A DNA stretch of 64,000 nucleotides from Cyanophora paradoxa CCMP329 (lineage: Eukaryota > Plantae > Glaucophyta): the NCBI GenBank assembly GCA_004431415.1, contig QPMI01000577.1, positions 1 through 64,000 of the forward strand, given 5' to 3'. This document shows, piece by piece, positions 1 to 46,102 of the stretch. The notes beneath the pieces were generated by a model that had not been told where the DNA came from, made no database searches, and saw only the letters and a program-made list of their open reading frames with translations. The first letter of the stretch is position 1, and each line of letters starts with the position of its first letter. The translations under genes were made by a program, and so were the position numbers.

Positions 1-2159
1 TTGCATGCAAACATGAAGATATCCCCAAGCTTTTCAAAGCTATGGATTGGTGAAAAAAGAGGATTATGACAGTGGAGTTTACAGCTCCACACAGAACCTA
101 TCTGCCTCAATTGCTGCAAAGGTGAGACTCTGATGCTCAAAAAAATCAAAGAAAGATGTTGATAAAAACGTTTGCTTTAAGAAATTCGTTGACTGTGACA
201 AAGTGTTAATGCGAAATGAGGACTTCTTTGTATCTTTCTTCTCAGCTTCTACTAAACTTGTGGATGAATCGAATATTTCTGCATTCGCAAATTATAGCCC
301 TGAGCCAAAACCAGTTAAAAAGGAGCCAAAAAGTGATAAAGTGAAGACTGAGAAGGTAGAAGCTGAAAAAGACACTGAACCCGAAAATCCTGTTACTTTC
401 GAACTGCTACAAAGTGTTATAATGGGTCTGAACGGTGAGAGAGCTAATGAGTATAAACTTGGATTGATGTAGGACTGGTCATCATCAATGTTGGGGAAGA
501 CAACAAGTTTCACCCCTAAATGGCAAGCTGAACTCTTCCACCAATTCTCAGAACAGAGTGACAAGTTATGATTAGATGAATGCCAGGAGAAGTTTACACA
601 GCTTCGCAGAAGCAAGAAGAAGGCTGAGCCTGCAAAAGTGTGACCTTCAAATCCTTGGTTTATTGGTTGACAAAGATAACAATGACTTTTTCAAGGAACT
701 CTTCCCCAAAAGTATGCATTCCTACCAGAGGACACAGATGAAATCGATTACAAGACTGCAAGTATCCCTCCTTTGGCTGAACATTACAATGTGCATAAGA
801 GTATTTCAATGCTCGAATGCATCATGTTGAAATGTTGGTTGTGTGATGCTCTGGGATGAACAACTACTTTGCTGGATGCCCAAAGATATTGGGAAGCTCT
901 CTACAAAGCATTTCCCCCATTTGATGCATAAGGTGATTGTCAATGAGGGAACAGATAATGAGAAAGAGAAATGGGAGCAATCATTTAGGAAATGGATTGT
1001 GGATCCAACAGCCACAGATCAACTTACATGGATTTCCTCCCCCTCCTGCTACTCTCAGTGCAAAATGCAAGTCTGTATTTAATCTCTATCCAGGAATGAA
1101 GTCGACCATCAGCAATTCGAAAATGCTCCAGAGGATGTAATGCTGAGATGATTAAGCCTTTCCTAGATCACTTGTTCTTAATGTCTGGTGAGGATCAAAA
1201 TACCTATGAATATCTGTTGAAATGGTTGCCCACATGCTGCAAAGCCTGGGGAACTCAATGAGTATCCTTAATCTTCATTGGTGAGCAGGGAACTGGTAAA
1301 ATGTGTTGGTTGATACTTTCCAAAAGAAGATACTTGGAGATGCCCCTAAGTTATGGCAACTGGAAAGCCAAAAGAGGATCTGTTTGGTCGATTTGCCCAC
1401 AATAGAGAGGATAAGATCTTGATTGTTGTGAATGAAGCCTCAGCAAGGACACATTCGAAATAATGATATGCTCAAAGATCTCATAACTTCTGATAAGATT
1501 GTAATTGAACACAAAGGGATAGATTCATACACAAAAGCAACTTTGCCAGATTATATTCACCAGCAATAACAACATTCCAGTGAAATTGAAGCTGGAGATA
1601 GGCGATTGTGGTTGTTGAAGTTAGTAAGAAATTCGCAAAGGATAGTCATACTTCCTTCCACTTGTAAATGGCTAAATGATCACTGCAATATTCGAAACAT
1701 TGCCCACTATTAGAACCAAAGTTGACTGTGAGGATGTGAACTGGATTGCTGATAGACCCTTACAAATAAATACTATTTAGCCACAGGTGTGCGCTCCAAT
1801 CATTCTTATGTTCACTAAGTGGCTTGTGGATCGAGGCTTAATTTCCGAGAATAAATGCAAGTCTGGTAGCCTTGTGGAAACCTGGAAGTGGTTCCAGGAG
1901 TTTATTACCAGCAATAAATATAAAAACGATTATAATAGTCGCCGATATTATACTGAAATGAGAAGTGTTACATATATCCAGTGAAACTACAAATGCAACA
2001 ATACTATCATTTCCTATTCCCACAAGTATTTGAGGAATTCAGAAAGATGAAGCTTGTAGATGATGAGACTATTGAGGAAGAAGCTAATCCAAGGATGAAA
2101 CAGGACCTACTGCTGCTGATCCTGATGCATCAGATTATGATTCTGATGTTGAAGTTTAG
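1..2159 (+). CDS. Primase (PriCT-2) - superfamily 3 (D5/NrS-1-like) helicase, 5'-partial, multiple frameshifts
   Basis: Joining frames gives PriCT-2-like RANEYKTWIDVGLVIINVG (~440-495), YEYLLKW.AHMLQ (~1205-1245), Walker A GEQGTGK (~1279-1299), Walker B ILIVVNEA (~1416-1439) and motif C IFTSNN (~1553-1570). Acidic tail ends at TAG 2157-2159. Confidence 0.85.
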
Positions 2160-2169
2160 GTTTACTCAA

Positions 2170-2346
2170 AAGTGGACTCATGGTTACTCAAATTATCATA
2201 AAAGACCCAAACAGTCTTTTATTTATGGTTTATTTATCGATTAGGTTGACTAAGTGGGGGAGTTGACTCATTTTTCACAGATTCTAAAAAGGACTCTGCC
2301 CTAAAAAGAAATAAAAAGTGCCTCAACTCCACCCACTAAGTCAACC
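2170..2346. repeat. Inverted-repeat module copy 1
   Basis: ggttgactaagtgggggagttga (2244-2266) is inverted to tcaactccacccactaagtcaacc (2323-2346); homologous to 8352-8539. Confidence 0.85.
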
Positions 2347-2396
2347 AAAAATGATTTAAGAGATAGAAAAATATATTTATATGTAAGTAGTAAGAA

Positions 2397-2746
2397 ATGG
2401 CTGGAACAGATCATGATTCTGGATCGATCTATATGATTGAGAGTGAAGAATTGAATAAAGTTTATATAGGAGAACCTCACAGCCACTACAAAAAAGATGG
2501 AGACAACACAAATCAGGTCAAATGCCATCTACAGCAGACCTATGCAAGGCTTCTGATGTGAGGTTTTCAGTCCTTTATTCAACTAAGAAGGGTGGGCATG
2601 AAGACCTTATGAACAGAGAAGCATATTACATGTATCTCTTTGAACCTTGGATAGTCAATCTACAAAAACCGAAATCTCGATTTAGGATTAATAGGTTTTT
2701 GCGATTTCATTCAGAGGAAGCCAATGGATCCATTAAAACATTTTAA
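2397..2746 (+). CDS. GIY-YIG endonuclease (one frameshift at ~2473)
   Basis: ATG 2397 gives MAGTDHDSGSIYMIESEELNKVYIGE. Restoring one A gives TSQPLQKRWRQH and joins ORF 2522-2746 (LMNREAYY...IVN). GIY/YIG, Arg, Glu and Asn motifs are in the expected order. Confidence 0.8.
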
Positions 2747-2806
2747 ATTGCGTTTAGAACATCCTAAAATAAAATATCCCCTTAGAATAGGAACAAGTTA
2801 GGAATA

Positions 2807-5800
2807 ATGCCCCGAATTACCAACAAACTCATAAGGGAGAAGAAATGGGAACTCATGGGATTGCTGGGAACACTATATGCAGCCCATGAAATAACAGAGG
2901 CTGAATATGACCGGGAAATAGATTTAATTGCAAGGGGCAGACCCACTTTAAGCAGATTAACCAGAAAAGCAAATAACCTATATGATAAATTGAAACCTTG
3001 GATGAACTGGATAGGCTTAGGCAAATAGAACCAGAGGCAGAAGATGGAACAGCCATGAATGAATTATATCGCTGGCTCACATACAGAGCCAGAAGGAAGT
3101 TGTTGTAGATGTGATTGAATTCCTGGATAGAATTGCTACATCCCTTCCAAATCGATTAAAGCAGGGTTTAGATCAATTCAGGGCAATCAAGGTTCGCTTG
3201 TCTTTTATCTGCAAGTTCGTTAAAGTGAGCAATCCACAGGTTTGATATCGAAATACATTTACAGTGATTACTTTGTATTAACCAGTCGAGAAATATTCGA
3301 ACTGAGCTGAATAAAGCAGCCCAATGTGTCAGGAGCAGATGAATGTGGTTGATAGCTATCGCTTAGAAAGAATTGAAATACTCAGATGGCTATTATGAGT
3401 TATGCTCCAACTGGTGGATGCTTTCTACAAACCCCAGAGTGGATTGCTAGGAAGAGAGCCACAGTGAATATTCGAAATATAGATGATTCCTGCTTCGAAA
3501 ATGCGATTTTAGCCTCGATTTACAGAAAATCTATTAACTCCCATAAGAGGAATGAGCTTTCACAATATCGCAAATGGAAATACTCAGCAATCGCTTATAA
3601 TCCGCTGGCTCTCATTTCGACAATATCCCATTCCCTGTTGCCTGTGATGCTGAAATAATTGATAAATTCGAGGCTCAAATGCAGGCATTAGCATTAATAT
3701 ATTCGGAATCGATGGAGAGGTTGTTTATCCCTGCATCAATCCAGTTACCCAGGCAGAAAGCATAAGGTTAATCTCATGCTGATATTTGATGATGAAGGGA
3801 ATGGTCATTATATTACAATCATGTCCCTTTCAAGATTATTGAAAGTAAACCATGAAACATACAATGATCAGAAGTTACACTACTGTGACACATGCTTATC
3901 TCGATTCAGGTCTGAGGCTAAACTCACTGCTCATGTGGACTCAAATAGATGCATTGATTGGAGACTCTCAAAGGGAATCACACCAAAACCTGAGACCACC
4001 ATAGAGTTTGGACTGAAAAACCTCAGGAAAACTGTTTGGCTTCCTGTTGTGGTTTACTGCAAGATTGAACATAGAAGCATCCCATTGATGCATCAAAATC
4101 TAAGAGGGAAGTCTCAGCAGTCAACCTGAGAGTAGTCACTGGGGCAGATGTTCAGGAGTTTCGATTTGAGGGTCAGGATCCAATGGGAGGTCTCTTTGAA
4201 TGCTTGGAGTCCAAAGCAAGAGAACTAATCGATTTCCTGTTTACCAACATTCCTATGAATGAACTCACAGATGAGCAGAAAGCAATTTACAGAGCTACCA
4301 AACACTGTTACCTTTGCAGTGAGAGTTCACTAAGGAGAACTTCAAATGCAGGGATCATGATCACCACACAGGTCATTATATTGCTCCTGCATGCAGAAAC
4401 TGCAATCTCCATAGGAGAATCTCAAAGCAAACCAAAGTTGCAGTAGTTGTTGACCAAATGGATGACTGTGGGACATTCATTTTCAGAAAAATAGCAGGCA
4501 TGGGTGATAAAAGCGAATCGAAATCCTTTCGAAAAACTTTGATCAATACCTTTCATTGCAATGGGTCTTTACAAGTTCATTGATGCAAGCAATTTCATGG
4601 ATTTTGGAGCTGCTGATGTAGATGAGTTAATGAACAAATTCCAAGCCTTCAGAAGGCTTTCACACTCAGTATATGGACTTGACCCAGTTCATTATGTATC
4701 TGCACCTGGGTTATCTTGGGATGCTATGCTTAGGACCACCGAGGCAAAAATAGAGCTTATAAGTGATGTAGAGCAATACGAATTTGTTGAGAGGGAATCA
4801 GGGTGGCTTTGCAACAATGCCTTGTAGGTATGCTGAGGCTGATGGTGAGAACTCCCACATTATGCTGTTTGATGCTAACAACTGTATGGCTACTGTTTGA
4901 GTCAGCCATTCCAGTTGGTGATTTTAGATGGGAGACCGAATTCAACCCACAAGATAACAGATCCAGTTTCCTGGAAGTTGATCTGGAATACCCAATAAGG
5001 CTATATCTAGACCACAGTGATTTCCCCCTAATTATTAACAAGAAAATAGTAGAATATGCGGAATTATCACAATATCAAAAGAGCCTGTTGGATCTTTCAG
5101 GAGAAGAGCTTGATAAGACCCCTAAGCTAACTGCAACCTTTGGTTCTGTGGCAAACTATGTTATTTCTGAGCCTCTTCTGCAATATCTGTTGGACAAAGG
5201 TGTGAAATTAAAGAAAATTCACAGGGTCCTCTCATTTACTGTGGCTCCTGTAATGAAACCCTACATTGAGCTGAATACTGAGATGAGAAGGAAAGCAGTG
5301 AATAAATTCGAGGCTGATTTCTATAAACTCATGAATAACTCAATCTATGGGAAATGCATTGAATCTTGCAGAGGTAGATCTGTGGTTAAGATTGCAAACA
5401 GTGAGAAACTGTTTATGAAATATGCAGCTTCCCCATTGGTGAAATCAACAAGTCCCATAAACGAAAAAGCAGTTGCCTTTGAGTTTTACACAAAGCATGT
5501 GAAACTAGATAAGCCTGTTGCAATTGGGGCTTATGTTTTGGATGCAGCCAAACTGCATAATTACCAGTTCTTCTATGATACTGTAAGGTCCCAATGGACA
5601 AAAGCAAAGTTACTATTCCATGATACTGACTCCTTCTGTCTATATATTGAATCTAAGACCTTACAAAAAGATATAGAGAATATATCTTATGCCTTGGACC
5701 TAGGGGGATCTAACAGAATGACCCCAGGTAAATACAAAAATGAAATGCCTGGCTCTGCAATATTGGAGTATGTAGGTCTGAGAGCAAAAGTTTACAGTTT

Positions 5801-6035
5801 CAGAACTGCTGAGATTGAGAGGAGTAAGCTCTCTGGGACTTCCACTGAGGAACTCCAATTTAATGATTTTAAGCAGTGTTTATTTGCAGGTATCAGCAAG
5901 ACTGTGACTGCAAAGCAGAAGAGAAGGGCAGATCACACAATAATAGATACCGTGAGTAGAAGGGTTGCCCTAAACTGCTTTGATGCAAAGAGATACATCT
6001 TACCAGATGGTATTAATTCTGTTCCTTTTAATTAA
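2807..6035 (+). CDS. polB: Protein-primed-type family B DNA polymerase (Polinton-type), frameshifted in 5' half
   Basis: NIRNIDDSCF...GHY (OTU-like Cys/His region), C2H2 finger HYCDTC...H, EndoVII-like CYLC...RDHDHHTG...CRNCN (~4306-4406), YGLDPVHYVSAPGLSWDAML, motif A FDANNLYG (frameshift ~4883), motif B KLMNNSIYGK, motif C HDTDS, GLRAKVYS. Confidence 0.95.
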
Positions 6036-6038
6036 GAG

Positions 6039-7423
6039 ATGCCAGCAACTGGAAGAATAGTTAGGAGAACCACTGAGCAACTACAAGGTAACCTACTGCC
6101 TATCACAGTTCCAAAGGAGGAAAAAGGGGAATCTCGAATTGTCAAAAAATCAGAGATGAAAGAGCTTGTCCCTGTGGAGATCCCAGTTGCTATTGCAGTG
6201 AAAGAAACTAGCAAGATTGCCAAGAGATTCTATGATGTGAGGACTGGTTACAAAGGGCTTCAAGCTATGAGGGCTGAGTTACCAGATGAATCCTATAAGC
6301 AGTTGCAAGAGTTCTATAAAAAACAAGAGGTAGTTCAGATCAATGCACCTGCTATATCTAGGAAGAGAGATCCCATGGTTCCAATAAGGCAACCCTTGAT
6401 ACCTATGTGATTGATTTGCTCTTTTTCCCAGCTTATAAGAAACAAAACAATGGCTATGATACCTTTATGACTGCTATGGAATCAACACTGAGAACTGGAT
6501 ATATCATACCTATAAGAGATAAATCAGCTCTCACTACATTAGCTGCATTTAAGCAGCTTGAAATGAGAGTGGCAAGACCCATAGTAAAAGTTCAATCAGA
6601 TGCTGGGAGTGAGTTCCAAAATCGAATATTCCAGGAGTATTTATCTAGTAAATTCATAGAACACCAAGTGAGTGGAACTGCTGACCATAGAAGCCAAGGT
6701 CGAATTGAAGCCTTTAACAAGCAGATTAAGAGACTGATCACAAACTACTGCATAGCTAATAACACAGCTAGATTCTTTGATGTGTTAGGTGATATTGAGT
6801 ATAATTACAATAATACAGTTCACTCAGCTACTAAGATGAAGCCAGGCGAAACTACAGAGGAGCATTATAGGTATATAGTGGGATTAGAAGATGAAAGATT
6901 CAAGAAATCAATAGCTTACCTTGATACCATGCAGCCAGGCATGTTTGTTAGAGTGAAAGTTGAGAAAAATGCCTTTGCTAAACAGGGTAACAATTGGTCT
7001 AGGATGGTTTACACTGTTGATAGTAGGGAAGGCTTTAAGTTTAAGCTAAGGAGTCCCACTGGTGAGATCATAGAAAACAGGTTTGCTTTCCATGAGCTGT
7101 TACCTGTGAATTCAGTTGAGTATCTGGAAACACCTACAGTGGATGCATTAGAGCAAGCCAAAGAGGAAGCCAAGGTTGATGCTGCTATAAGGAGAGAAGG
7201 CATAGAAGCTGCTAATGAAGTCCCAGATAAGCCTTTGATAGAGGCTAGAAAGGAGAAGACTGGCAAGGTTAATAGGGAACTCAAAAAGCTCACTATAGCA
7301 GGGACACAGAAACTTTCTGAGGTTAATAGCCAGAGATGGTATAATGACTTTCAGACTACTAAGGAGTCATATACAGCCCCTAAACCTCAGAGAACACTAA
7401 GAGAAAGGACCAAAACTAGCTAG
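6039..7423 (+). CDS. Retroviral-type (rve) integrase of Polinton/Maverick type; ORFs 6039-6410 and 6407-7423 joined by a 1-nt deletion at ~6396
   Basis: Restored junction QPFDTYVIDL supplies the first Asp; QSDAGSEF and GRIEAFNK complete the DDE triad; YNNTVHSATKMKP and NWSRMVYTV are typical. Starts 3 nt after the polB stop. Confidence 0.93.
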
Positions 7424-7898
7424 TTTGCTAGGCAAAAACTCGTTTTTTCCAAATATATGTATGACTGATATACATATATGCACATGATATACACATAGTC
7501 TTGTAGATCTTATCAAGCGCTTCACAGCGATATGCAGAACGTTGCGTTTTGATGATCTGGTGATGAGATATAACAGTTTGAAGATGCAAAAGTCACTTGC
7601 CATAGTAGACTTGGTGAAACACTAGCCCAGGAGTCGACTAGATGGCAAGCCGTTTTTGGCTCAGAGAATAAAGCGCTAGATTACTGACTCAGAACTACGA
7701 GGCTCAAATCCGACCGGGAACCTTTACTTCGTTCGCCGTGAAACTTGAAAAGAAAAAAAAAAACGCGGTTTTTTCTAGATTAATGCTGTACCCGTCTAGA
7801 AACTCACTATTGCTACGATATCTCAACACCACATGCTCAAATCGATGCGCTTAAAACGTCATAAAATCGAGCATTTTAAGGCGGTCACAGCGCTACTA

Positions 7899-8270
7899 TC
7901 ACATCTAGGATTTTCGATACCTGTGACTCCAAATCGCGATGAAACCGATTTTGAATTTTGATTTTAAATTCGATTAAAATCCATTAAACGTGAGTTTTTA
8001 ATACAGATCACCAGGAAGTTATCAAATCGATACACCAACGATTCAATATAATCACCAATATCATACATAACAATAAATTGCAATCACATCTACGAATCTC
8101 GATGTGTATACATCGCTATTACGATTAAACCGATTTTGAAAATTCAAAACTAATTCGATTAAATTCGATTATAACGAAAGAGTTAAAGATCTACATCAAA
8201 TACTTATCAACTCAATCACCTGATAACATCGAATAATCAACCCAAATCTACTTTAGAGATAATCGTGATT
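7899..8270. repeat. Diverged ~185-bp tandem repeat (2 units)
   Basis: tcacatcta...aaaccgattttgaa...ttcgattaaa...ttatcaa recurs at ~185-bp offset (units start ~7899 and ~8084). Confidence 0.65.
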
Positions 8271-8351
8271 ACATATGTGAAATCATCAATCTAACACTGC
8301 ATTTAGTAAGCATCTCCCCTTGATTCCCCCTATTATATTATATTTATATTT

Positions 8352-8539
8352 AAGTGGACTCAAGGTTGACTCATATTAATCGTAAAAGTAGTAATAGTAT
8401 ATGGATTTTGTTACGAATTCAATGCAAGGGTTGACTAAGTGGGTTGAGTTGACTCAAATTTCACAGGAAATATTTGGGACCTAAAGTTTTCTAAAAAGGA
8501 TTTCAAAAAATGTGTCAACTCCCCCCACTTAGTCAACCC
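8352..8539. repeat. Inverted-repeat module copy 2
   Basis: Same ordered motifs as copy 1: aagtggactca, ggttgactaagtggg..gagttgactca, tcacag, tctaaaaagga, tcaactcc..ccact.agtcaacc. Confidence 0.85.
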
Positions 8540-8840
8540 TGACCATAAACAGTAAGGATTTGAGCTAACATGTATCACAAAGTGAACATTTTGAGTCCAC
8601 TTAGAAGATCCACTTTTGAAATCCAAGTTGATTTTGCTTGAAATTTCAAAGTTGATCTAAAAGTGAGTCCACCCTGATTGATTATGGTAACAAAGTTGAC
8701 TAAGTTGACTAAGTTGAGTCATCTTAAGAAATTCAAAGAGACTAAGAGTTCAAAATGTTTATGAAAAGTGAGTCAACTTAGACCACTTCTGATAACAAAG
8801 TTAAATATTTAATTGATTTAATCGGAAAAGAACATGATTT

Positions 8841-9065
8841 AATCGAATTTATTGATATAATTCCGATTAGATTCATTTAGGATTCAATTAAGATCAATCG
8901 AAGTTATTGATATAATTCCGATTAACTACAATTAAGATACAATATCGATTAATCGAGTTTATCGATATAACATCGATTAAATTAATTGAAAATGCATGTA
9001 AAAATATGAAAATTCAGGTGAAAATTCAAATAAATTAATCGATTTTATTGATATAACATCGAATC
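8841..9065. repeat. Four subterminal quasi-palindromic iterons AATCGA..TTAT(T/C)GATATAA...CGA
   Basis: Copies at ~8841, 8896, 8951 and 9037. Confidence 0.85.
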
Positions 9066-9138
9066 ACACATATGAATATTCATATTTTAATCCTGAGGCG
9101 GAACGCCGAGGGATTAAAATATGAATATTCATATGTGT
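9066..9138. repeat. Perfect 28-bp inverted repeat (hairpin) at the element/host junction
   Basis: acacatatgaatattcatattttaatcc (9066-9093) is the exact reverse complement of 9111-9138; 17-nt GC-rich spacer. Confidence 0.95.
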
Positions 9139-12100: not shown

Positions 12101-14635
12101 CGAATTCCGTCAATTGCAATCAGCTATAGAGCTAGGTATAAATAATTTTCTGACTTCGCATGTGGGACTCAGGCGGAAACGAGGGCGGGCCTCAGGGCTC
12201 AGGGGCAGGTGTCACATGGGGCGTCATCCTGCCTGTCAACAGCAGCTCCCTCGACGGCACTGTGGTTCGCTATATCACAGGATCGGGCTTCCCCACGAAC
12301 GACCCTGCGCTCTCCCTGACCATCGGCGACCTCGTCGTGTCGAACCTCGCTGTGGCGCCGAACGCATCGCTGCTCACCTTCACGATCCCCGCCCCTTCCC
12401 AAAACCCGAACAACGCTTTGGTCGCCGGTTCGTGCTTTCTTGACTCAGTGACGCGCGCTGCTCGCAGTCGCTTGCAAGCCGTTCGGTATAGGCCTGATCA
12501 TGAGCCCTGAGCCTATTGCCAATCGGCAGGGACGCATTACGACATCGTTCTAAGAACGTCCAATGGCGTGCAAGTGGCCACTTTCCCGAAGTCGTATGTC
12601 TTCTTTTCGCCGGTAATCGAATATATAGCTTCTTGCAAATTGTTGCCGTCTTCATTCTGAAGCACGGGAGCGGGCTTCAGAACTCGGCAGCAGGGGGGGC
12701 AGGTGTCACGTGGGGCGTCATCCTGCCTGTCAACAGCAGCTCCCTCGACGGCACTGTGGTTCGCTATATCACAGGATCGGGCTTCCCCACGAACGATCCT
12801 GCGCTCTACCTGACCATCGGCGACCTCGTCGTGTCGAACCTCGCTGTGGCGCCGAACGCATCGCTGCTCACCTTCACGATCCCCGCCCCTTCCCAAAACC
12901 CGAACAACGCTTTGGTCGCCGGTTCGTGCTTTCTTGACTCAGTGACGCGCGCTGCTCGCAGTCGCTTGCAAGCCGTTCGGTATAGGCCCTGAGCCCTGAG
13001 CCTGTTGCCGATCGACAGAGACACATTACGACATTGTTCTAAGAACGTCCAATGGCGTGCAAGTGGCCACTTTCCCGAAGTCGTATGTCTTCTTCTTGCC
13101 GGTAATTACATAATAAAATCAAACAAATTCTTACATGCGCATCCTCGAGCTCAAGCTTTGTTCCAGGGTGGAAATGGGAGCCGGCTTCAGGTCGTCGGAA
13201 TTCGCAAGCGGGTGCAGGCCAACAGCACTGAGAGCGTCTTTATCAGCTGCAAGGTGCTCAGCTGCCGACGTCGACGTCATGATCAAGTTTAGAATTTGAA
13301 GGACAATCGCTTAACCTAACGCTATCCTGCAGGGCTGCAACTTCGACCCCACAGATGTGGTAGAGGTGCGCATGCGCGGGCCCCGGGCCTGCGCGCTGCT
13401 GCTGCAATCATATATAATTAAATTGAAGCTTGATCCTGATCGGTACCATGAGCAGGTCTACATTCAAATCCCGGACTCGACGAGCCGCGGCTGGGCCATC
13501 AAAACTCCGGGGAACGTGACTTTATACCGCGGGCCCGCCAACACGTGCGGAATGAGGGCGCCGAACGCGAGGGTCGTGTCCGACTCCCAAGTGGACTTCA
13601 CGTCGCCCGTCTTCAGCTCCGCGTGCATCAGGGACAACTTCCGCCGCTCGCTGCTGCAGGCGCAGGACCAAAGGGCGCTCAACACCCCGTACAGTGCGTC
13701 GACCGCCGGACGTCGTTCCCCCGCGCCTGTTCGCCACCGATGAATCGATATCGATATCATGCGCTTGTGCAGGCGTGGTGCTGGTTTCCGCACAGCAGGG
13801 ACCCTTCGTCGTTCCTGCGGTCTGCGCCTCGCCCGCCGAGTCGATCTAGATTTAATTTGTACATATAAATGGCGATACATTAATTATAACCTTCTAGATA
13901 TAATTCGTGCGTGCGTGTACATGTGCGTGATCAAGAACGTTCGAATTCCATTCGCAGGCCTTCGAGTGGTTCGACGTCGATGCGGGGTCCGGCACACCGG
14001 CCGCTCCCACCGGAGCCACCAGCAACATTAATTACTCGCCTTACCAGTCCGCCGAGAAAAGCGTGCGCACCTGCAGCTTATTGTATAACCGCTCGTACTT
14101 GTTAATCCTTCAATTCGTGTGTGCTCACATGCTGTTCGAATTCGGAGCGCAGAGCTCGAGCTCCCCGGACCACTCGCCTGCGATCATTGTTCCCGTCGTC
14201 GTCGGCGTCTGCCTCGTCGCGCTCGCCGTCGGCCTCGTGGGAGTCTTCGCGTACCGCCGCCGCCGCTGGGGCCGCCTCCGCGAGTTCGTCGACGTCCGAG
14301 TGACCTTCGCCGACCCGGCGCCGCCAGGCGCCGACTCCGTCGCGGCGGCGATCGCGTCCTCGCTGCGTGCTCCGCGCGTTGCGGCGGTCGGGCTGAAGGG
14401 CGATCGCGAGGCCCGCGCGGCGCTCGTGCGGGTGCACGACGCGCGGCAGCGGTCGACGGGCGAGGTCCGCCGCGTGACCGAGGAGCTCCTCGCGTGGGCG
14501 TCGAAGGGCGTGGCGGGCTCCACGCTGGCCGGCCGCAAGGTCGCGTTCGCCGAGCTGCTGCGCCAGCCGGCGGCCGCAAAGTCAACCGTGGACGGCTCTG
14601 ACTTCTACTCCAGCCGCGTCAACATCGCTCTGTAG
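9161..14635 (+). CDS. Multi-exon type I membrane protein with IPT/TIG-like domains (possibly two genes)
   Basis: Signal peptide LIAGVLGAVVLAAIVASSAVLA; Cys-rich segment; IPT-like PVNSSSLDGTVVRYITGSGF...LTIG...LTFTIP and ARVVSDSQVDFTSP; TM helix IIVPVVVGVCLVALAVGLVGVFAY followed by RRRR; GT-AG introns. Confidence 0.65.
12202..13106 (+). repeat. Near-identical intragenic tandem duplication of the IPT exon region (12202-12618 / 12696-13106)
   Basis: Identical peptide GAGVTWGVILPVNSSSLDG... in ORFs 12160 and 12516; offset 494 bp. Confidence 0.95.
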
Positions 14636-41920: not shown

Positions 41921-44900
41921 TTAGAAGAGGGAGAAGAGGCAGAGGGACTCGTCGAGGGCCATCAGCGTGTTCTCCAGCCGGTCGCACGCCTTTAGCGCCT
42001 GCAGACGGGGCTGCGATCAGAGGCGGGGCGGGCGAGGAGCAAGCAGGGACTACAATTAGAAGGGCGGCCGCGCCTGCTGCTGCATCTCCGCGACGGTCCG
42101 CTCGCCGTCAGCGCCAGCGGCGCCCGCCTTCTCCTTGTCGCCGGCCCCCGCCTTCGCCCCGCCGCCCGCCTCCCCGCCCCTCGAGCTCGCCCCCGCCGCC
42201 GCCGCGGAGCCGCCCTCCTCCTCCCCCGCCCCCGCCGCCGCGCCCCCGGCGGCCCCGCCGACGGCGGCGACGGCGCCGTTGCCGTTGGCGCCGTTGCCGG
42301 AGCCGCGGAGGAGCTGGTCGCGGCGGGCGACCTCGGCGAGGAGCCGGCGCCGCACGTTGAAGCAGGCCCGGTAGAGCTGCGCGGGGGCCAAAGGCGAAGC
42401 GAAGTCAGCGGCGGCGGCGCGGGCGCTCGCACTGTCGGTCTGGCGGGCAAAGCCTCTAGGACAATTGCAACCGGAGAGCCGCCAGGCCTCTTAAGGGGGC
42501 CCCCTCCCTCCCCCCTCGAGGCGGCATAGGAGGCTCTAGGCGGGGGGCGGCGAAGGAGGGGGGAGCCGCCCCCGCCGCGAAGCTCCCCAAGCCTCCTTCC
42601 TCGGCCCAGACCGCCCCTCACCCTAAGCGAGCCGAAGCTCCCCAAGCATCCAAACTCCCCACGCAGCTCCCCTTGGACGGATCGGCGGATCTAGGCTCTT
42701 GCCCCTACGATCTTCCCCTAAGATAGTACGCGTGGGCCCCCATGCGAAGAAGCCCGGGCTTCCAGGCCCCTCTCGCCCCAAGGTGGCGGACCTGGTCGAC
42801 GAGGCGGGCGAGGAGGCGGGGGAGGTTGACGGCCCACAGGTAGAACGTCCGCTGCGGGTTGTGGTCCTGGCCTCGCGGCACCTCCTGCCCGGGGGCACCC
42901 CGCCCCGTCAGCCGCCGCCCGATCGACCCCGGATCGGTCGCCCGATCGATCGCCCCCTCGATCGCCGGAGCGGCTAGCATGGGCAGCTAAAGCTTAAGCC
43001 GGGCGACCTAGATCCAACGGTCGGAGCGGGGCTGGCCCAGAAGCTAGGCTTCTGGGAATGCCTAGGCTTCTTCTTCTGAGGATCTGGGGGCGAGGCGGGA
43101 GAGGGGAACGCTCGCCTGGAGGTAGAGGAAGTGGGCGGCGAGCATGCGGTGGAGGTGCTCCCGCGCCTCCTTCACCGGGATCATCGCCAGCTCCCCCACC
43201 TGCGAGAGCAGGAGCGGAGCGGAGTAGAGTAGAGTCAGAGAGAGAGAGCGTAGGGGGAGGGGAGGGTGGGAAGAATGGACTAGGCGTGCCGCCGCATAGT
43301 TCCCGGGCCCTTCGAATCACGGGCGGGCTAGAGGGTGGGCGGCAGGGAGGGCGGGGCGGGGCGGGGCGGGGCGGGGCGGGCGCGCTTGCTTCTCCTCCAG
43401 CTGCGTCTTGGCGAGGAGCAGCCGGAAGACGCGCGCCGGCATCTCCCCGAACCTGCGCGCCGAGGTACATGAGATTAGGCATGGGGGTAGGAGCACGGGC
43501 AGGGGGACCGCTCACCGCTCGCTGACGATCGCCTCGACGGTCTTTCGCTTGACCAAATCCTGCGGGGGAACGTTCGCCAGGGGGGTACGCGGTACGGTGC
43601 GGAGGGGGGTACAGGCTCACCAGCGCGGCCCGCAGGTTGAGGGTGTAAGCGCCACCGCCCGTCTCGCCGTGCTTCTGCGGGGGGTTTGAGGGGAGGGGGG
43701 TAGGCTGATGCTAAGGGGGTACGGGACCCACCGTCGCAATGCCGGTCGTGTCCTTGCAGAGGAGCTCCATGTAGTCTCCCAGCTAGGGGGTACGAAGTTG
43801 TGGGCTCCGAGGAAGGAGGGGGGGGGAGGCGGGGGTACCTTGTTCTTGTTGACGTTCAGGTCGATGGGGAGGGAGGGGTGGACCTGATCCACATAGAATA
43901 CGCCTGCGGGGTACAGGTTTAAAAAGGATGCGCCGAGACGGGGGAAAGGGGGGTTACGGGGTACGGCGCACATGTGGTGGGATCGCAGCGTGTCTTCTCG
44001 AAGGGAGCGGTAACCAGCAGGACGCTCTGAGACGAAGTCAGGGAAGCGGGTAATGCGATACGAGGAGGCGAGGGAGGGGGTACGCGAACCCGCACGATCG
44101 CGGCGGCGGTCGGGTTGTACTTCTCTGAGACGAGGCGGACAACGGCCTGCGGGGGGTACCGGGTCGGGTCGGGGAGCGGGTGAGGGGGTACAGGGCGATT
44201 CGTGCCTCGTGGCGGAAGACGCGGACAATCTGAGGGGGGGGGGGGGGGGGGGGGGGGGGGAGAACGGCGTCGGTCCGCGGGCTGCGGGAAGGGAGGGGTA
44301 CGGGCCCCGCACCTGGTCGTAGTTGACCCGCCAGAGGATCTCGCCCTCCTGTACCCCGGAAGAAAAGGAATGAGGTGGGCGGCGGTGCGGGGGCGCGGGC
44401 GGGGCGCACGGGAGTGGAGCCGGCGGGGGCGCCCGGGCCGCCGCTGGAGGGGCCGGGGGCCGCAGCGCTATCGCCGGGGCCCCGCCCGCCGGCGCGGCCA
44501 GCGCATCCTTGCCCCGCCGCGGCTTCTGCGGCCGCCGGTCTCAGGGACCCAGGGGGTAGACACAGCAGCGCGCCGGTCTCGGAAGTGGGCGGGGGGAAGG
44601 GGGGGGGGGGGGGAGGAGCGCGCCTTGGCGGCCCGCGATGCGCTGGCGGCGTCGGCGGCGGTGCGCTGGATCATCTCGAGCTCCAGCGCCACGGCCCCGC
44701 TGGCAGGCTCGGCGGCCCCGCCGAAGGAGAGGCCGCCCGCCCCGCCCCGCCCGCCGCCCCCTCCGGCGACATCGGGGTGCCGGCGTCCGCGCCCTTCTTC
44801 CGCTTCCGCGCCGCCGCCCCGCCCGCGGACGGCGGCGTGGGGGGTACGGGCGCCACGGCGCTCCGTCCCGACGCGGCGGCCCTGGGGACGGGGGAGGGAA

Positions 44901-46102
44901 TGAGCCGCAGAAAGGCAGGGGGGTACGCCGAGCGCACCGCTCGACGGCCGCGGCGGCGTTCGCCGCAGCGGATTGCTTCTTGGACCTGCGGGGCCGCGGC
45001 TCGAACGGGGGGCGGGATGGGCGGGGGGTACGGCGTCTCACCGCTCGGCCAGCATGGCGGCGATGGAGGGGGGTAGGATGAAGCGGTTGCTGAGGTAGGA
45101 GGAGACGGCGCTGTACTGGGGATCCTCTGCAGGGGTACGCAGTCAGCAGGTGCCTGCAGGCGGGACGAGGGCAAGGGGCATGCACCGGAGGGGACCGGGG
45201 CGGGGGATACGGGGAGGCCGAGCGGGGGTACGCGTTCGATGTAGCGGTGCCGGACCTGACGTACGCCGTCGGAAAAGGGGGGGAGAGAAAGGGGCGGAGG
45301 GGTACCAGCTCGACGAAGCAGTCACGCAGCGCCTCGCGCTCGTCTCCGGGCTCTGCGGCGGCGCGCGTGGGCGGCGGCCGCCGGCGCGGCGCGCGGCGCG
45401 TGCAGAGGGGCACCGAGCGGCTCGTCGAGAGTGAGGAGGCTCTGCGTCAGGGCGCGCTCCGCCTGTTGGCGCGGGCGGGCGGGCGGTCAGCTGGCGGGCG
45501 GGCGGACGAAGCGGAGCGCAGGCGGCCGAGGCGACGCGGGGCGGGGCGGGGCGGGACGGAGGCGCCTGTTGGGTGAGCTGGTCGACTCCGAGCCTTCCGT
45601 GCTGCACGAGCTCGTCTATGATCGCCTCGGACTGCGCGGCGCGTCGGCGGGCGCGGCCGGCGATCGCGGCGCGCGGGGCGGCGCACCCGCTGCCCGAAGC
45701 GCAGCTTCACGTGGGCCGCGAAGCGCGGGAAGCGGAGCCTGTGCAGAATGTTGTCCGCCGCGATATGGTACTGGTAGACCGGCGCTGGCGCGGGCGCGCC
45801 GGGCTTCACGGCGGCGGCGGCATCGCCGTCGATCACCGCGGAGGCGATGCTGTGTTGGAGCAGGATGAGCAGGCTGTTTCGCGTCTGCGTGTACTGGAGA
45901 CCGCTGTAGCGCATCACGTCCTGCAGGCTGAGCTTGCCCCGGTGCAGCAGGACCGCCGCGACCTTCTGCTCGACCGCGGAGCGCGGGCGGGCATCAGGCG
46001 GCCCCCGGGTCGGTTCCGCGCGAGGCGGCGCACCTCCACGATGTCCCCGAAGAAGTCTTTGACGATGTCCTGCGCGAGCTTCGCCTCGTACAGAGAGCCC
46101 AT
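41921..46102 (-). CDS. RPC3: DNA-directed RNA polymerase III subunit RPC3 (POLR3C/C82), multi-exon
   Basis: N-terminus MGSLYEAKLAQDIVKDFFGDIVE|KVAAVLLHRGKLSL...LLILLQHS, NILHRLRFPRF, ELVQHGRL, RHRYIER, WRVN; C-terminal RVFRLLL..LEEKQVGELAMIP and EVPR...RTFYLW. Confidence 0.92.

What the first reader, a model, noticed from the sequence alone, without database searches (positions are those of the whole stretch)
1..9138. Integrated Polinton/virophage-like element carrying both a primase-helicase and a protein-primed-type polymerase
Seen: four co-oriented, tightly packed genes (PriCT-2/SF3 primase-helicase, GIY-YIG, pPolB, rve integrase) and a long structured end, inside a GC-rich host. Known: Polintons carry pPolB plus rve integrase, and mavirus-type virophages add an SF3 helicase and GIY-YIG. 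Protein priming makes a primase unnecessary. Inference: the primase, duplicated origin-like module, terminal hairpin and degenerate exonuclease together suggest an undescribed lineage that may replicate by primase- or hairpin-primed synthesis. The AEP catalytic core would lie left of the window and is not directly seen.
Basis: partly seen in the sequence, partly recalled or inferred. Interest (0 to 1): 0.85.

Follow-up and report, generated by a model that had tools for sequence, protein, structure and literature searches.

The report
Proofreading-dead Polinton polymerase paired with primase-helicase
This is one end of a multi-copy, likely viral DNA element inserted in a eukaryote's chromosome; its Polinton-type DNA polymerase has lost its proofreading residues and sits beside a helicase with a likely primase, so the two likely share the copying work, a pairing already reported in related viruses but not found in print for this polymerase lineage.

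Summary
Bases 1-9138 are the right arm of an AT-rich element in a GC-rich eukaryote, carrying an SF3 helicase, GIY-YIG, pPolB and rve integrase. Two mirror-image GTTGAC blocks and a 73-nt terminal hairpin are also real. The many frameshifts are likely long-read errors. Short-read contig depth suggests tens of copies.

Added here: a probable AEP motif III lies inside the window. The pPolB is of the Endonuclease_7-bearing Polinton type, structurally far from mavirus. Its exonuclease motifs are lost or deleted, as in one 46-50% identical relative, while 97 of 97 other homologs keep the ExoI residues. It keeps the vOTU Cys/His pair, and the relative's model keeps the terminal-protein fold, so protein priming is not shown to be lost.

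pPolB plus primase-helicase, terminal palindromes and hairpin priming are all in print (2015-2026), so this is a variant of a known kind. Likely mechanism: the primase-helicase starts at the palindromic blocks, pPolB extends, and terminal-protein priming restores the ends. Capsid genes, left end and TSD could not be tested. The scan had already noted sister hairpin ends and helicase-matched blocks on other pieces of this genome.

The parts
1..2159 (+). 3' part of a likely AEP-PriCT2-SF3 (D5-like) primase-helicase gene; runs off the left edge; frame-broken in this assembly
   Evidence: SF3/DUF5906 score 119 vs shuffle max 41; phrog_1156 primase E 0.0031; PriCT_2 E 0.057; end inferred from the frame-3 stop
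68..121 (+). Probable AEP motif III (D-x-G-V-Y-x3-Q-N-L, then Lys in register after one frame break)
   Evidence: Best match in the element to the PrimPol motif printed; 2 of 200 shuffles reach the score; pattern retrieves 3 of 3 AEP-like viral ORFs
2245..2345 (.). Mirror-image GTTGAC block right after the helicase; origin-like (function inferred)
   Evidence: z -6.4; aligned with the terminal block
2397..2746 (+). GIY-YIG endonuclease gene, one frame break; variable among copies
   Evidence: clustered substitutions against contigs
2807..6035 (+). pPolB, about 1,075 aa: TP-like domain, vOTU (Cys 3479 region, His 3803 region), C2H2 finger, exonuclease fold with ExoI/ExoII substituted and ExoIII segment deleted, Endonuclease_7 insert, polymerase motifs A, B, C intact
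   Evidence: model of relative P0001 pLDDT 86, best PDB match phi29 polymerase
6039..7423 (+). rve (DDE) integrase, one frame break near 6395, no chromodomain hit
7424..9138 (.). Non-coding end region, presumably part of a terminal inverted repeat (left end not seen); 89-nt duplication 7898-7986/8083-8171 and 55-nt tandem array 8838-9083
8427..8540 (.). Second GTTGAC palindromic block, same word as 2245-2345; further copies of the word at 8365, 8695, 8704, 8772
9066..9138 (+). 73-nt terminal hairpin, 35-nt arms, tandem G.A mismatch and GAA loop on the strand that ends in the free 3' end; the other strand begins ACACAT
   Evidence: host contig starts at 9111/9112

Best explanation
This is the replication-integration arm of a multi-copy, likely Polinton-like integrating virus whose proofreading-deficient pPolB likely works with a neighbouring primase-helicase: the helicase would load at the mirror-image GTTGAC blocks, its likely AEP domain would lay primers, pPolB would extend them, and terminal-protein priming on the folded 3' end would restore the termini. 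The rve integrase would then insert the linear copy. Shown: gene content and order, loss of exonuclease motifs, intact polymerase and vOTU motifs, the two blocks, the hairpin, high depth. Inferred: AEP activity, origin function, division of labour, end patching, virion formation. The helicase-block-GIY-YIG unit is likely a swappable cassette, because pPolB contigs are about twice as deep as helicase contigs.
For: Exonuclease loss looks old and stable. ExoI Asp and Glu and ExoII Asn are invariant in 97 of 97 other full-length homologs and replaced in P0001. The window has lost the ExoI Asp, the ExoII Asn and Asp, and the same ExoIII segment; that segment spans 27 residues in P0001 and 110 or more in 97 of 97 others. 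Window and P0001 form their own long branch (support 100), while the next rows L014 and L015 keep all three motifs. PMC11161782 (passages) states that exonuclease loss goes with gain of a helicase; this fits, and mavirus pPolB is a distant structural match (rank 39, TM 0.24), so the loss is likely independent. Protein-priming parts are kept: vOTU Cys and His (94 and 93 of 97 homologs, P0001 and window), TP fold with Ser198/Tyr199 between helix 2 and strand 4 in the P0001 model, the same Asp-Ser-Tyr in the window. The block behind the helicase recurs in the end region. Internal origin plus TP-primed patching of 3' overhangs folded with sheared G:A pairs is established in Streptomyces (PMC4513846 passages).
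Against: No activity was measured. AEP motifs I and II lie outside the window; the motif III match is modest (2 of 200 shuffles; a chance match of 29 vs 28 in the 55-kb host flank) and PriCT-2 is below Pfam's cut-off. The TP loop lacks the Gly-Ser-Gly-Trp pattern (Ser in 91 of 97 homologs at the column where P0001 has Asp), against the Gly/Pro rule in PMC11161782, so TP priming may be lost. The hairpin pairs to the very last base, which suits self-priming. Depth ratio pPolB/helicase of 2.2-2.4 in 4 of 4 runs (hand-picked contig rows; the tool warns depth is no copy number) suggests many pPolB copies lack this helicase. The neighbours of P0001 are unknown. Capsid genes were not seen.
Confidence: 0.47

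Rival explanations
1. Mavirus-like mode: pPolB starts by protein priming at both ends and copies by strand displacement. The SF3 protein only helps unwinding; its AEP is accessory, and the hairpin is an end cap or integrase signal.
For: TP fold, vOTU pair and polymerase motifs kept; best PDB match is phi29 polymerase; the terminal ACACAT repeat would suit sliding-back initiation (recalled rule, not tested); low-GC EMALEs carry pPolB, rve and a primase/helicase (PMC8547959 passages).
Against: Does not explain why the word behind the helicase is rebuilt as a palindrome inside the end region, nor the altered TP loop.
Confidence: 0.25
2. Replacement in progress with hairpin priming (closest to the first reader): a mobile primase-helicase-origin-endonuclease cassette has taken over initiation, protein priming is lost, and the 3' hairpin primes its own extension.
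For: Altered TP loop and lost exonuclease; hairpin paired to its last base; GIY-YIG next to the helicase and variable among copies; models of this kind in PMC11296320 (passages) and the Halocafeteria preprint (section 7), where palindromes go with non-pPolB replicases.
Against: The exonuclease-less state is shared with a relative only 46-50% identical, so it is not a passing decay; vOTU and Asp-Ser-Tyr are conserved in both; pPolB contigs are deeper than helicase contigs. An unreviewed note reports one fixed hairpin orientation at both ends of a sister element (e1-10643541, not tested here), which flip/flop priming would not give.
Confidence: 0.2
3. The adjacency is accidental: two nested or tandem elements, or a collapsed-repeat chimera, put an AEP-SF3 replicon beside an unrelated pPolB-integrase module.
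For: The window's element sequence is error-rich; no listed contig spans the stretch; tandem and nested elements are described (Barth preprint section 13); depth differs between modules.
Against: Overlapping high-depth contigs tile helicase end, block, GIY-YIG and pPolB start (2110-2345, 2316-2844); no hairpin or TIR lies between the modules; the helicase's block word recurs in the pPolB-side end.
Confidence: 0.08

Closest known systems
Halocafeteria seosinensis endogenous virophages and PLVs (bioRxiv 10.64898/2026.07.28.741278; section 7 read, plus passages)
   Same: [quoted passage not shown]
   Different: There palindromes go mostly with non-pPolB replicases and two replicases are read as transient; 'exonuclease' status is not discussed in the parts I read. 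Here the hairpin goes with a pPolB whose polymerase motifs are intact.
Multi-replicase polisuviruses (Barth, Ha, Aylward, bioRxiv 10.64898/2026.10.13.758929; section 13 read, plus passages)
   Same: pPolB paired with a DDE integrase plus an acquired AEP gene, often beside an endonuclease.
   Different: The word 'exonuclease' does not occur in its main text; no division of labour is proposed. Figures and supplements could not be seen, so this element's family may be among their genomes.
Mavirus and low-GC EMALEs (PMC8547959, PMC11296320, PMC11161782, PMC3671162; passages)
   Same: SF3 helicase, rve, exonuclease-deficient pPolB and GIY-YIG in one end module.
   Different: Mavirus order is TIR-helicase-rve-pPolB-GIY-YIG and its helicase has no other recognisable domain; here the helicase is innermost and likely has an AEP. 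Mavirus pPolB is about 620 aa and structurally distant; this one is about 1,075 aa and keeps the exonuclease fold and an Endonuclease_7 insert.
Polintons/Mavericks/adintoviruses with Endonuclease_7-bearing pPolB (called group 2 from recall)
   Same: Domain order TP-vOTU-exonuclease-polymerase, pPolB beside rve; nearest public relatives at 29-38%; top viral structure matches are adintovirus, bidnavirus-like and MELD polymerases. PMC4405056 says some polintoviruses encode D5-like primase-helicases.
   Different: The relatives keep proofreading motifs (97 of 97 for ExoI; 0 of 45 locus ORFs lacked two or more motifs), and none of 116 other ORFs from the 23 loci of 9 kb or more hit a primase or SF3 helicase family.
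Streptomyces linear replicons (PMC4513846; abstract and passages)
   Same: Mechanistic analogy only: internal origin, 3' ends folded with sheared G:A pairs, terminal-protein-primed end patching.
   Different: Bacterial, no pPolB, unrelated Tpg/Tap proteins; no homology claimed.

Membership tests
Polinton/Maverick (Polintoviricetes) | Protein-primed family B polymerase with TP and vOTU domains | tested here: met
   Motifs and vOTU Cys/His in the window; TP fold and phi29-like core in the model of relative P0001. Linking loop altered.
Polinton/Maverick (Polintoviricetes) | rve-type integrase | tested here: met
   Pfam rve E 4.9e-4, below the curated cut-off; tblastn E 3e-30 to Pfam-confirmed rve of L011.
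Polinton/Maverick (Polintoviricetes) | Proofreading exonuclease motifs in pPolB (usual state) | tested here: not met
   ExoI Asp and ExoII substituted, ExoIII segment deleted.
Polinton/Maverick or PLV | DJR major capsid, penton, A32 ATPase (protease in Polintons); MCP type decides the class | not testable with these tools
   Would lie left of base 1; no genome held. Unreviewed notes describe 28-kb capsid-bearing elements with similar ends on other pieces.
Polinton/Maverick or PLV | Terminal inverted repeats and 5-6 bp target-site duplication | not testable with these tools
   Only one end is in the window; no second copy in bases 9201-64000.
Polinton/Maverick or PLV | Multi-copy insertion in a eukaryotic genome | tested here: met
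   Element contigs about 29-42 (helicase) and 71-92 (pPolB) times the flank depth in 4 of 4 runs (rough); flank has an RPC82 domain hit. Free virus DNA could add to depth.
Mavirus-type virophage (Lavidavirales) | [quoted passage not shown] | tested here: not met
   TM 0.24, 8% identity to mavirus pPolB; exonuclease fold present in the model.
Mavirus-type virophage (Lavidavirales) | Virophage MCP, ATPase, protease | not testable with these tools
   Outside the window.
AEP-SF3 (D5-like) primase-helicase | SF3 helicase motifs | tested here: met
   Score 119, z 27.
AEP-SF3 (D5-like) primase-helicase | AEP catalytic motifs I, II and III | tested here: inconclusive
   Motif III likely; I and II expected about 200 nt or more left of base 1, by spacing in L095.
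Tlr1-like / transpoviron pPolB-SF1 fusion | Exonuclease domain absent and SF1 helicase fused to the palm | tested here: not met
   pPolB ends at 6035 with no helicase; integrase starts 3 nt later.

The most novel reading that the evidence does not exclude
A eukaryotic virus lineage has converged on Streptomyces-style replication: a swappable primase-helicase with its own origin copies the body of the genome using a polymerase that shed proofreading independently of mavirus and Tlr1, and terminal-protein priming survives only to patch G.A-capped 3' ends. That would be a living intermediate between protein-primed Polintons and D5-primed giant viruses.
Probability: 0.25. Interest if true: 0.75.

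Novelty: new variant of a known kind. Interest (0 to 1): 0.45.

Why it matters
How most Polinton-like viruses start replication is unknown. This element offers an apparently independent case of the proposed link between exonuclease loss and helicase gain, caught with the exonuclease fold still present. It also puts a candidate origin, a primase-helicase, a terminal protein and a hairpin end into one compact, multi-copy unit, so protein, primase and hairpin priming could be told apart by experiment. If the end-patching reading holds, it would show how a protein-primed virus can move to primase-driven replication without losing its ends, the step proposed for the origin of giant viruses (PMC4405056, passage).

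Tried and rejected
No whole genome is held, so leftward extension, left TIR, TSD and capsid search were impossible. Searches for helicase relatives found nothing: 0 hits among 1.84 billion representatives and none of 4,181 candidates at E 0.01; both queries were single frames of a frame-broken gene, so the blanks mean little. No ESM Atlas result was obtained, so that comparison is open. Integrase relatives in viral contigs: none confirmed. The block word in viral contigs: 0 matches. P0001 had no PDB sequence match. tblastn of 959 ORFs from 93 loci gave no match to the helicase or GIY-YIG at E 0.01; loci are partial. Scores of the three motif-retrieved AEP ORFs against the window are circular and did not clearly exceed shuffle maxima; not used as evidence, and none of the three hit an AEP family in Pfam. 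The maximum-likelihood tree did not finish; the FastTree tree (89 rows: window, 24 of 120 protein hits, 64 locus ORFs) has no named Polinton, PLV or virophage references and its 4-row group may be long-branch attraction. No RNA holder listed; of two guessed-RNA runs, X15 laid 2 contigs at depth 3-4 and X16 none: no evidence either way. Promoter and terminator scan of the end: at chance level. 'Decayed pseudo-element' was rejected as main reading because contigs restore letters at the listed breaks, but contigs drop rare variants, so decay of this one copy is not excluded. Flip/flop state of the hairpin could not be read (219 difference rows hidden). Sequence and word look-ups in earlier findings were empty.
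Full report
What is there. Bases 1-9138 are AT-rich (GC 0.30-0.42 per kb up to base 9000) and the rest of the window is 0.44-0.83, with the step at about 9150. The flank is eukaryotic (RPC82 domain, E 1.4e-5). Unreviewed scan notes name the host as the glaucophyte Cyanophora paradoxa; I did not test this. Four co-oriented genes follow each other: helicase (1 to about 2159), GIY-YIG (2397-2746), pPolB (2807-6035) and rve integrase (6039-7423), then 1.7 kb of non-coding end.

The frame breaks are likely assembly errors. The genes are badly broken in the window; 21 breaks were called in pPolB alone. Short-read contigs from four runs put single letters back at the rows shown (12 of 84 indel rows; 12 of 48), often at the whole depth, while 1,890 bases of host flank match without a difference. 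Contigs drop rare variants, so this one copy may still be partly decayed. Element contigs are about 29-42 times (helicase) and 71-92 times (pPolB) as deep as the flank in 4 of 4 runs (rows picked by hand, a rough guide only). The host contig starts at 9111 or 9112 in all four runs, as expected if the element ends near 9138.

The helicase. The SF3 part is secure: score 119 against a phage DUF5906 protein, shuffle maximum 41. PriCT-2 is weak (E 0.057; not significant against one phage domain). Human PrimPol shows the motif. The best match to it in all six frames of the element is at base 68, and 2 of 200 shuffles reach that score; the 55-kb flank gives one chance match of similar score. A pattern built on the motif found 3 viral loci, and all 3 are ORFs with the upstream DxD and SxH-type motifs. 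So an AEP is likely; its other motifs lie left of the window.

The polymerase. Its nearest relative is P0001 (48% over the C-terminal part, next hits 32-38%; 46% over its length). The two form a long branch of their own. Polymerase motifs A, B and C are intact. ExoI Asp/Glu and ExoII Asn are invariant in 97 of 97 other full-length homologs and replaced in P0001; the window lacks the ExoI Asp, the ExoII Asn and Asp, and the same ExoIII segment of about 95 residues. Among 45 locus ORFs long enough to test, none lacked two or more motifs, and the tree neighbours L014 and L015 keep all three. The P0001 model (pLDDT 86) matches phi29 polymerase best in the PDB and adintovirus- and bidnavirus-like polymerases among viral models, with mavirus far down (TM 0.24). 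It shows the four-strand, two-helix N-terminal domain that PMC11161782 (part 2 of 6 and passages read) identifies as the terminal protein, with Ser198/Tyr199 at the helix 2-strand 4 loop. The vOTU Cys and His are kept in window and P0001. Against intact protein priming, the Gly-Ser-Gly-Trp loop of the homologs is replaced by Asp-Ser-Tyr in both.

The ends. A mirror-image GTTGAC block follows the helicase (2245-2345) and recurs at 8427-8540. The last 73 bases form a hairpin (z -12.8) with a tandem G.A mismatch and a GAA loop on the strand that ends in the free 3' end.

How it likely works. I favour a division of labour (0.47): the primase-helicase loads at the blocks and primes, the proofreading-deficient pPolB extends, and terminal-protein priming on the folded 3' end restores the termini, as in Streptomyces end patching (PMC4513846, abstract and passages); rve then integrates the copy. 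This accounts for keeping TP and vOTU alongside a primase, a cognate block and a one-strand hairpin. Every mechanistic step is inferred. Rivals are plain protein priming with an accessory helicase (0.25), takeover by the cassette with hairpin self-priming (0.20) and accidental adjacency (0.08). pPolB contigs are 2.2-2.4 times as deep as helicase contigs, so this helicase is probably one of several cassettes in the slot, which agrees with unreviewed notes on sister elements (e1-10595513, e1-10595310).

What is already known. PMC4405056 (passages) says some polintoviruses encode D5-like primase-helicases; PMC3671162 (passages) calls the pairing uncommon; PMC8547959 (passages) reports primase/helicase, pPolB and rve in low-GC EMALEs; PMC11296320 (passages) describes end modules with GIY-YIG, a repeat shared by module and TIR, and a replacement model. 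The Halocafeteria preprint (section 7) reports pPolB with D5 primase-helicase, terminal palindromes and a hairpin-priming model; the Barth preprint (section 13) shows multi-replicase genomes. PMC11161782 links exonuclease loss to helicase gain. I also saw passages of PMC10120064, PMC12721341, PMC12747079, PMC12344493 and bioRxiv 10.64898/2026.06.19.733378. In seven searches and these passages I found no report of an Endonuclease_7-type pPolB with dead exonuclease motifs beside an AEP-SF3, nor of end patching in such viruses. The library lacks most subscription papers, and I saw no figures or supplements. Among public relatives the pairing is rare: none of 116 other ORFs from 23 partial loci hit a primase or SF3 family.

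Verdict. It works like a mavirus-type end module built on a different polymerase lineage; class membership needs the capsid genes, which are outside the window. Interest 0.45.

Noticed in passing
window:1-7420 vs 7421-9138: CpG is depleted in the element's genes (observed/expected 0.24; 0.07 in the integrase) but TCGA is spared (32 of 68 CpG), while the non-coding end (1.25) and the host (1.1-1.2) are not depleted. Would fit long exposure to host CpG methylation (PMC12344493 passages, if the host named by notes is right); the spared context is unexplained.
   Followed up: partly
window:9161-14635: A likely host gene with a signal-peptide-like start begins about 23 nt past the element's end; a membrane-spanning-like stretch lies in the frame at 13931-14635. 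The insertion may sit in its promoter. No Pfam hit.
   Followed up: no
window:29238-32074 and 42167-45045: GC-rich host segment duplicated at about 12.97-kb spacing, 83-96% identical pieces.
   Followed up: no
window:12202-13106: Near-identical tandem duplication with about 490-nt spacing.
   Followed up: no
window:2445-2724: The GIY-YIG gene differs from the main contigs by clustered substitutions and has lower depth than its neighbours: several alleles, as expected of a homing endonuclease.
   Followed up: no
window:7840-8170 and 8838-9083: A second repeated word family (AATCGA/TCGATT) builds the 89-nt duplication and the 55-nt array; possibly blocks for another helicase type.
   Followed up: no
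L006:10119-12044: A viral contig with this Polinton-type pPolB family carries a Sputnik-type major capsid protein, like the hybrid rumen virophages.
   Followed up: no
L014:7517-11209: The pPolB of L014 lacks the Endonuclease_7 insert that its close relative L015 has.
   Followed up: no
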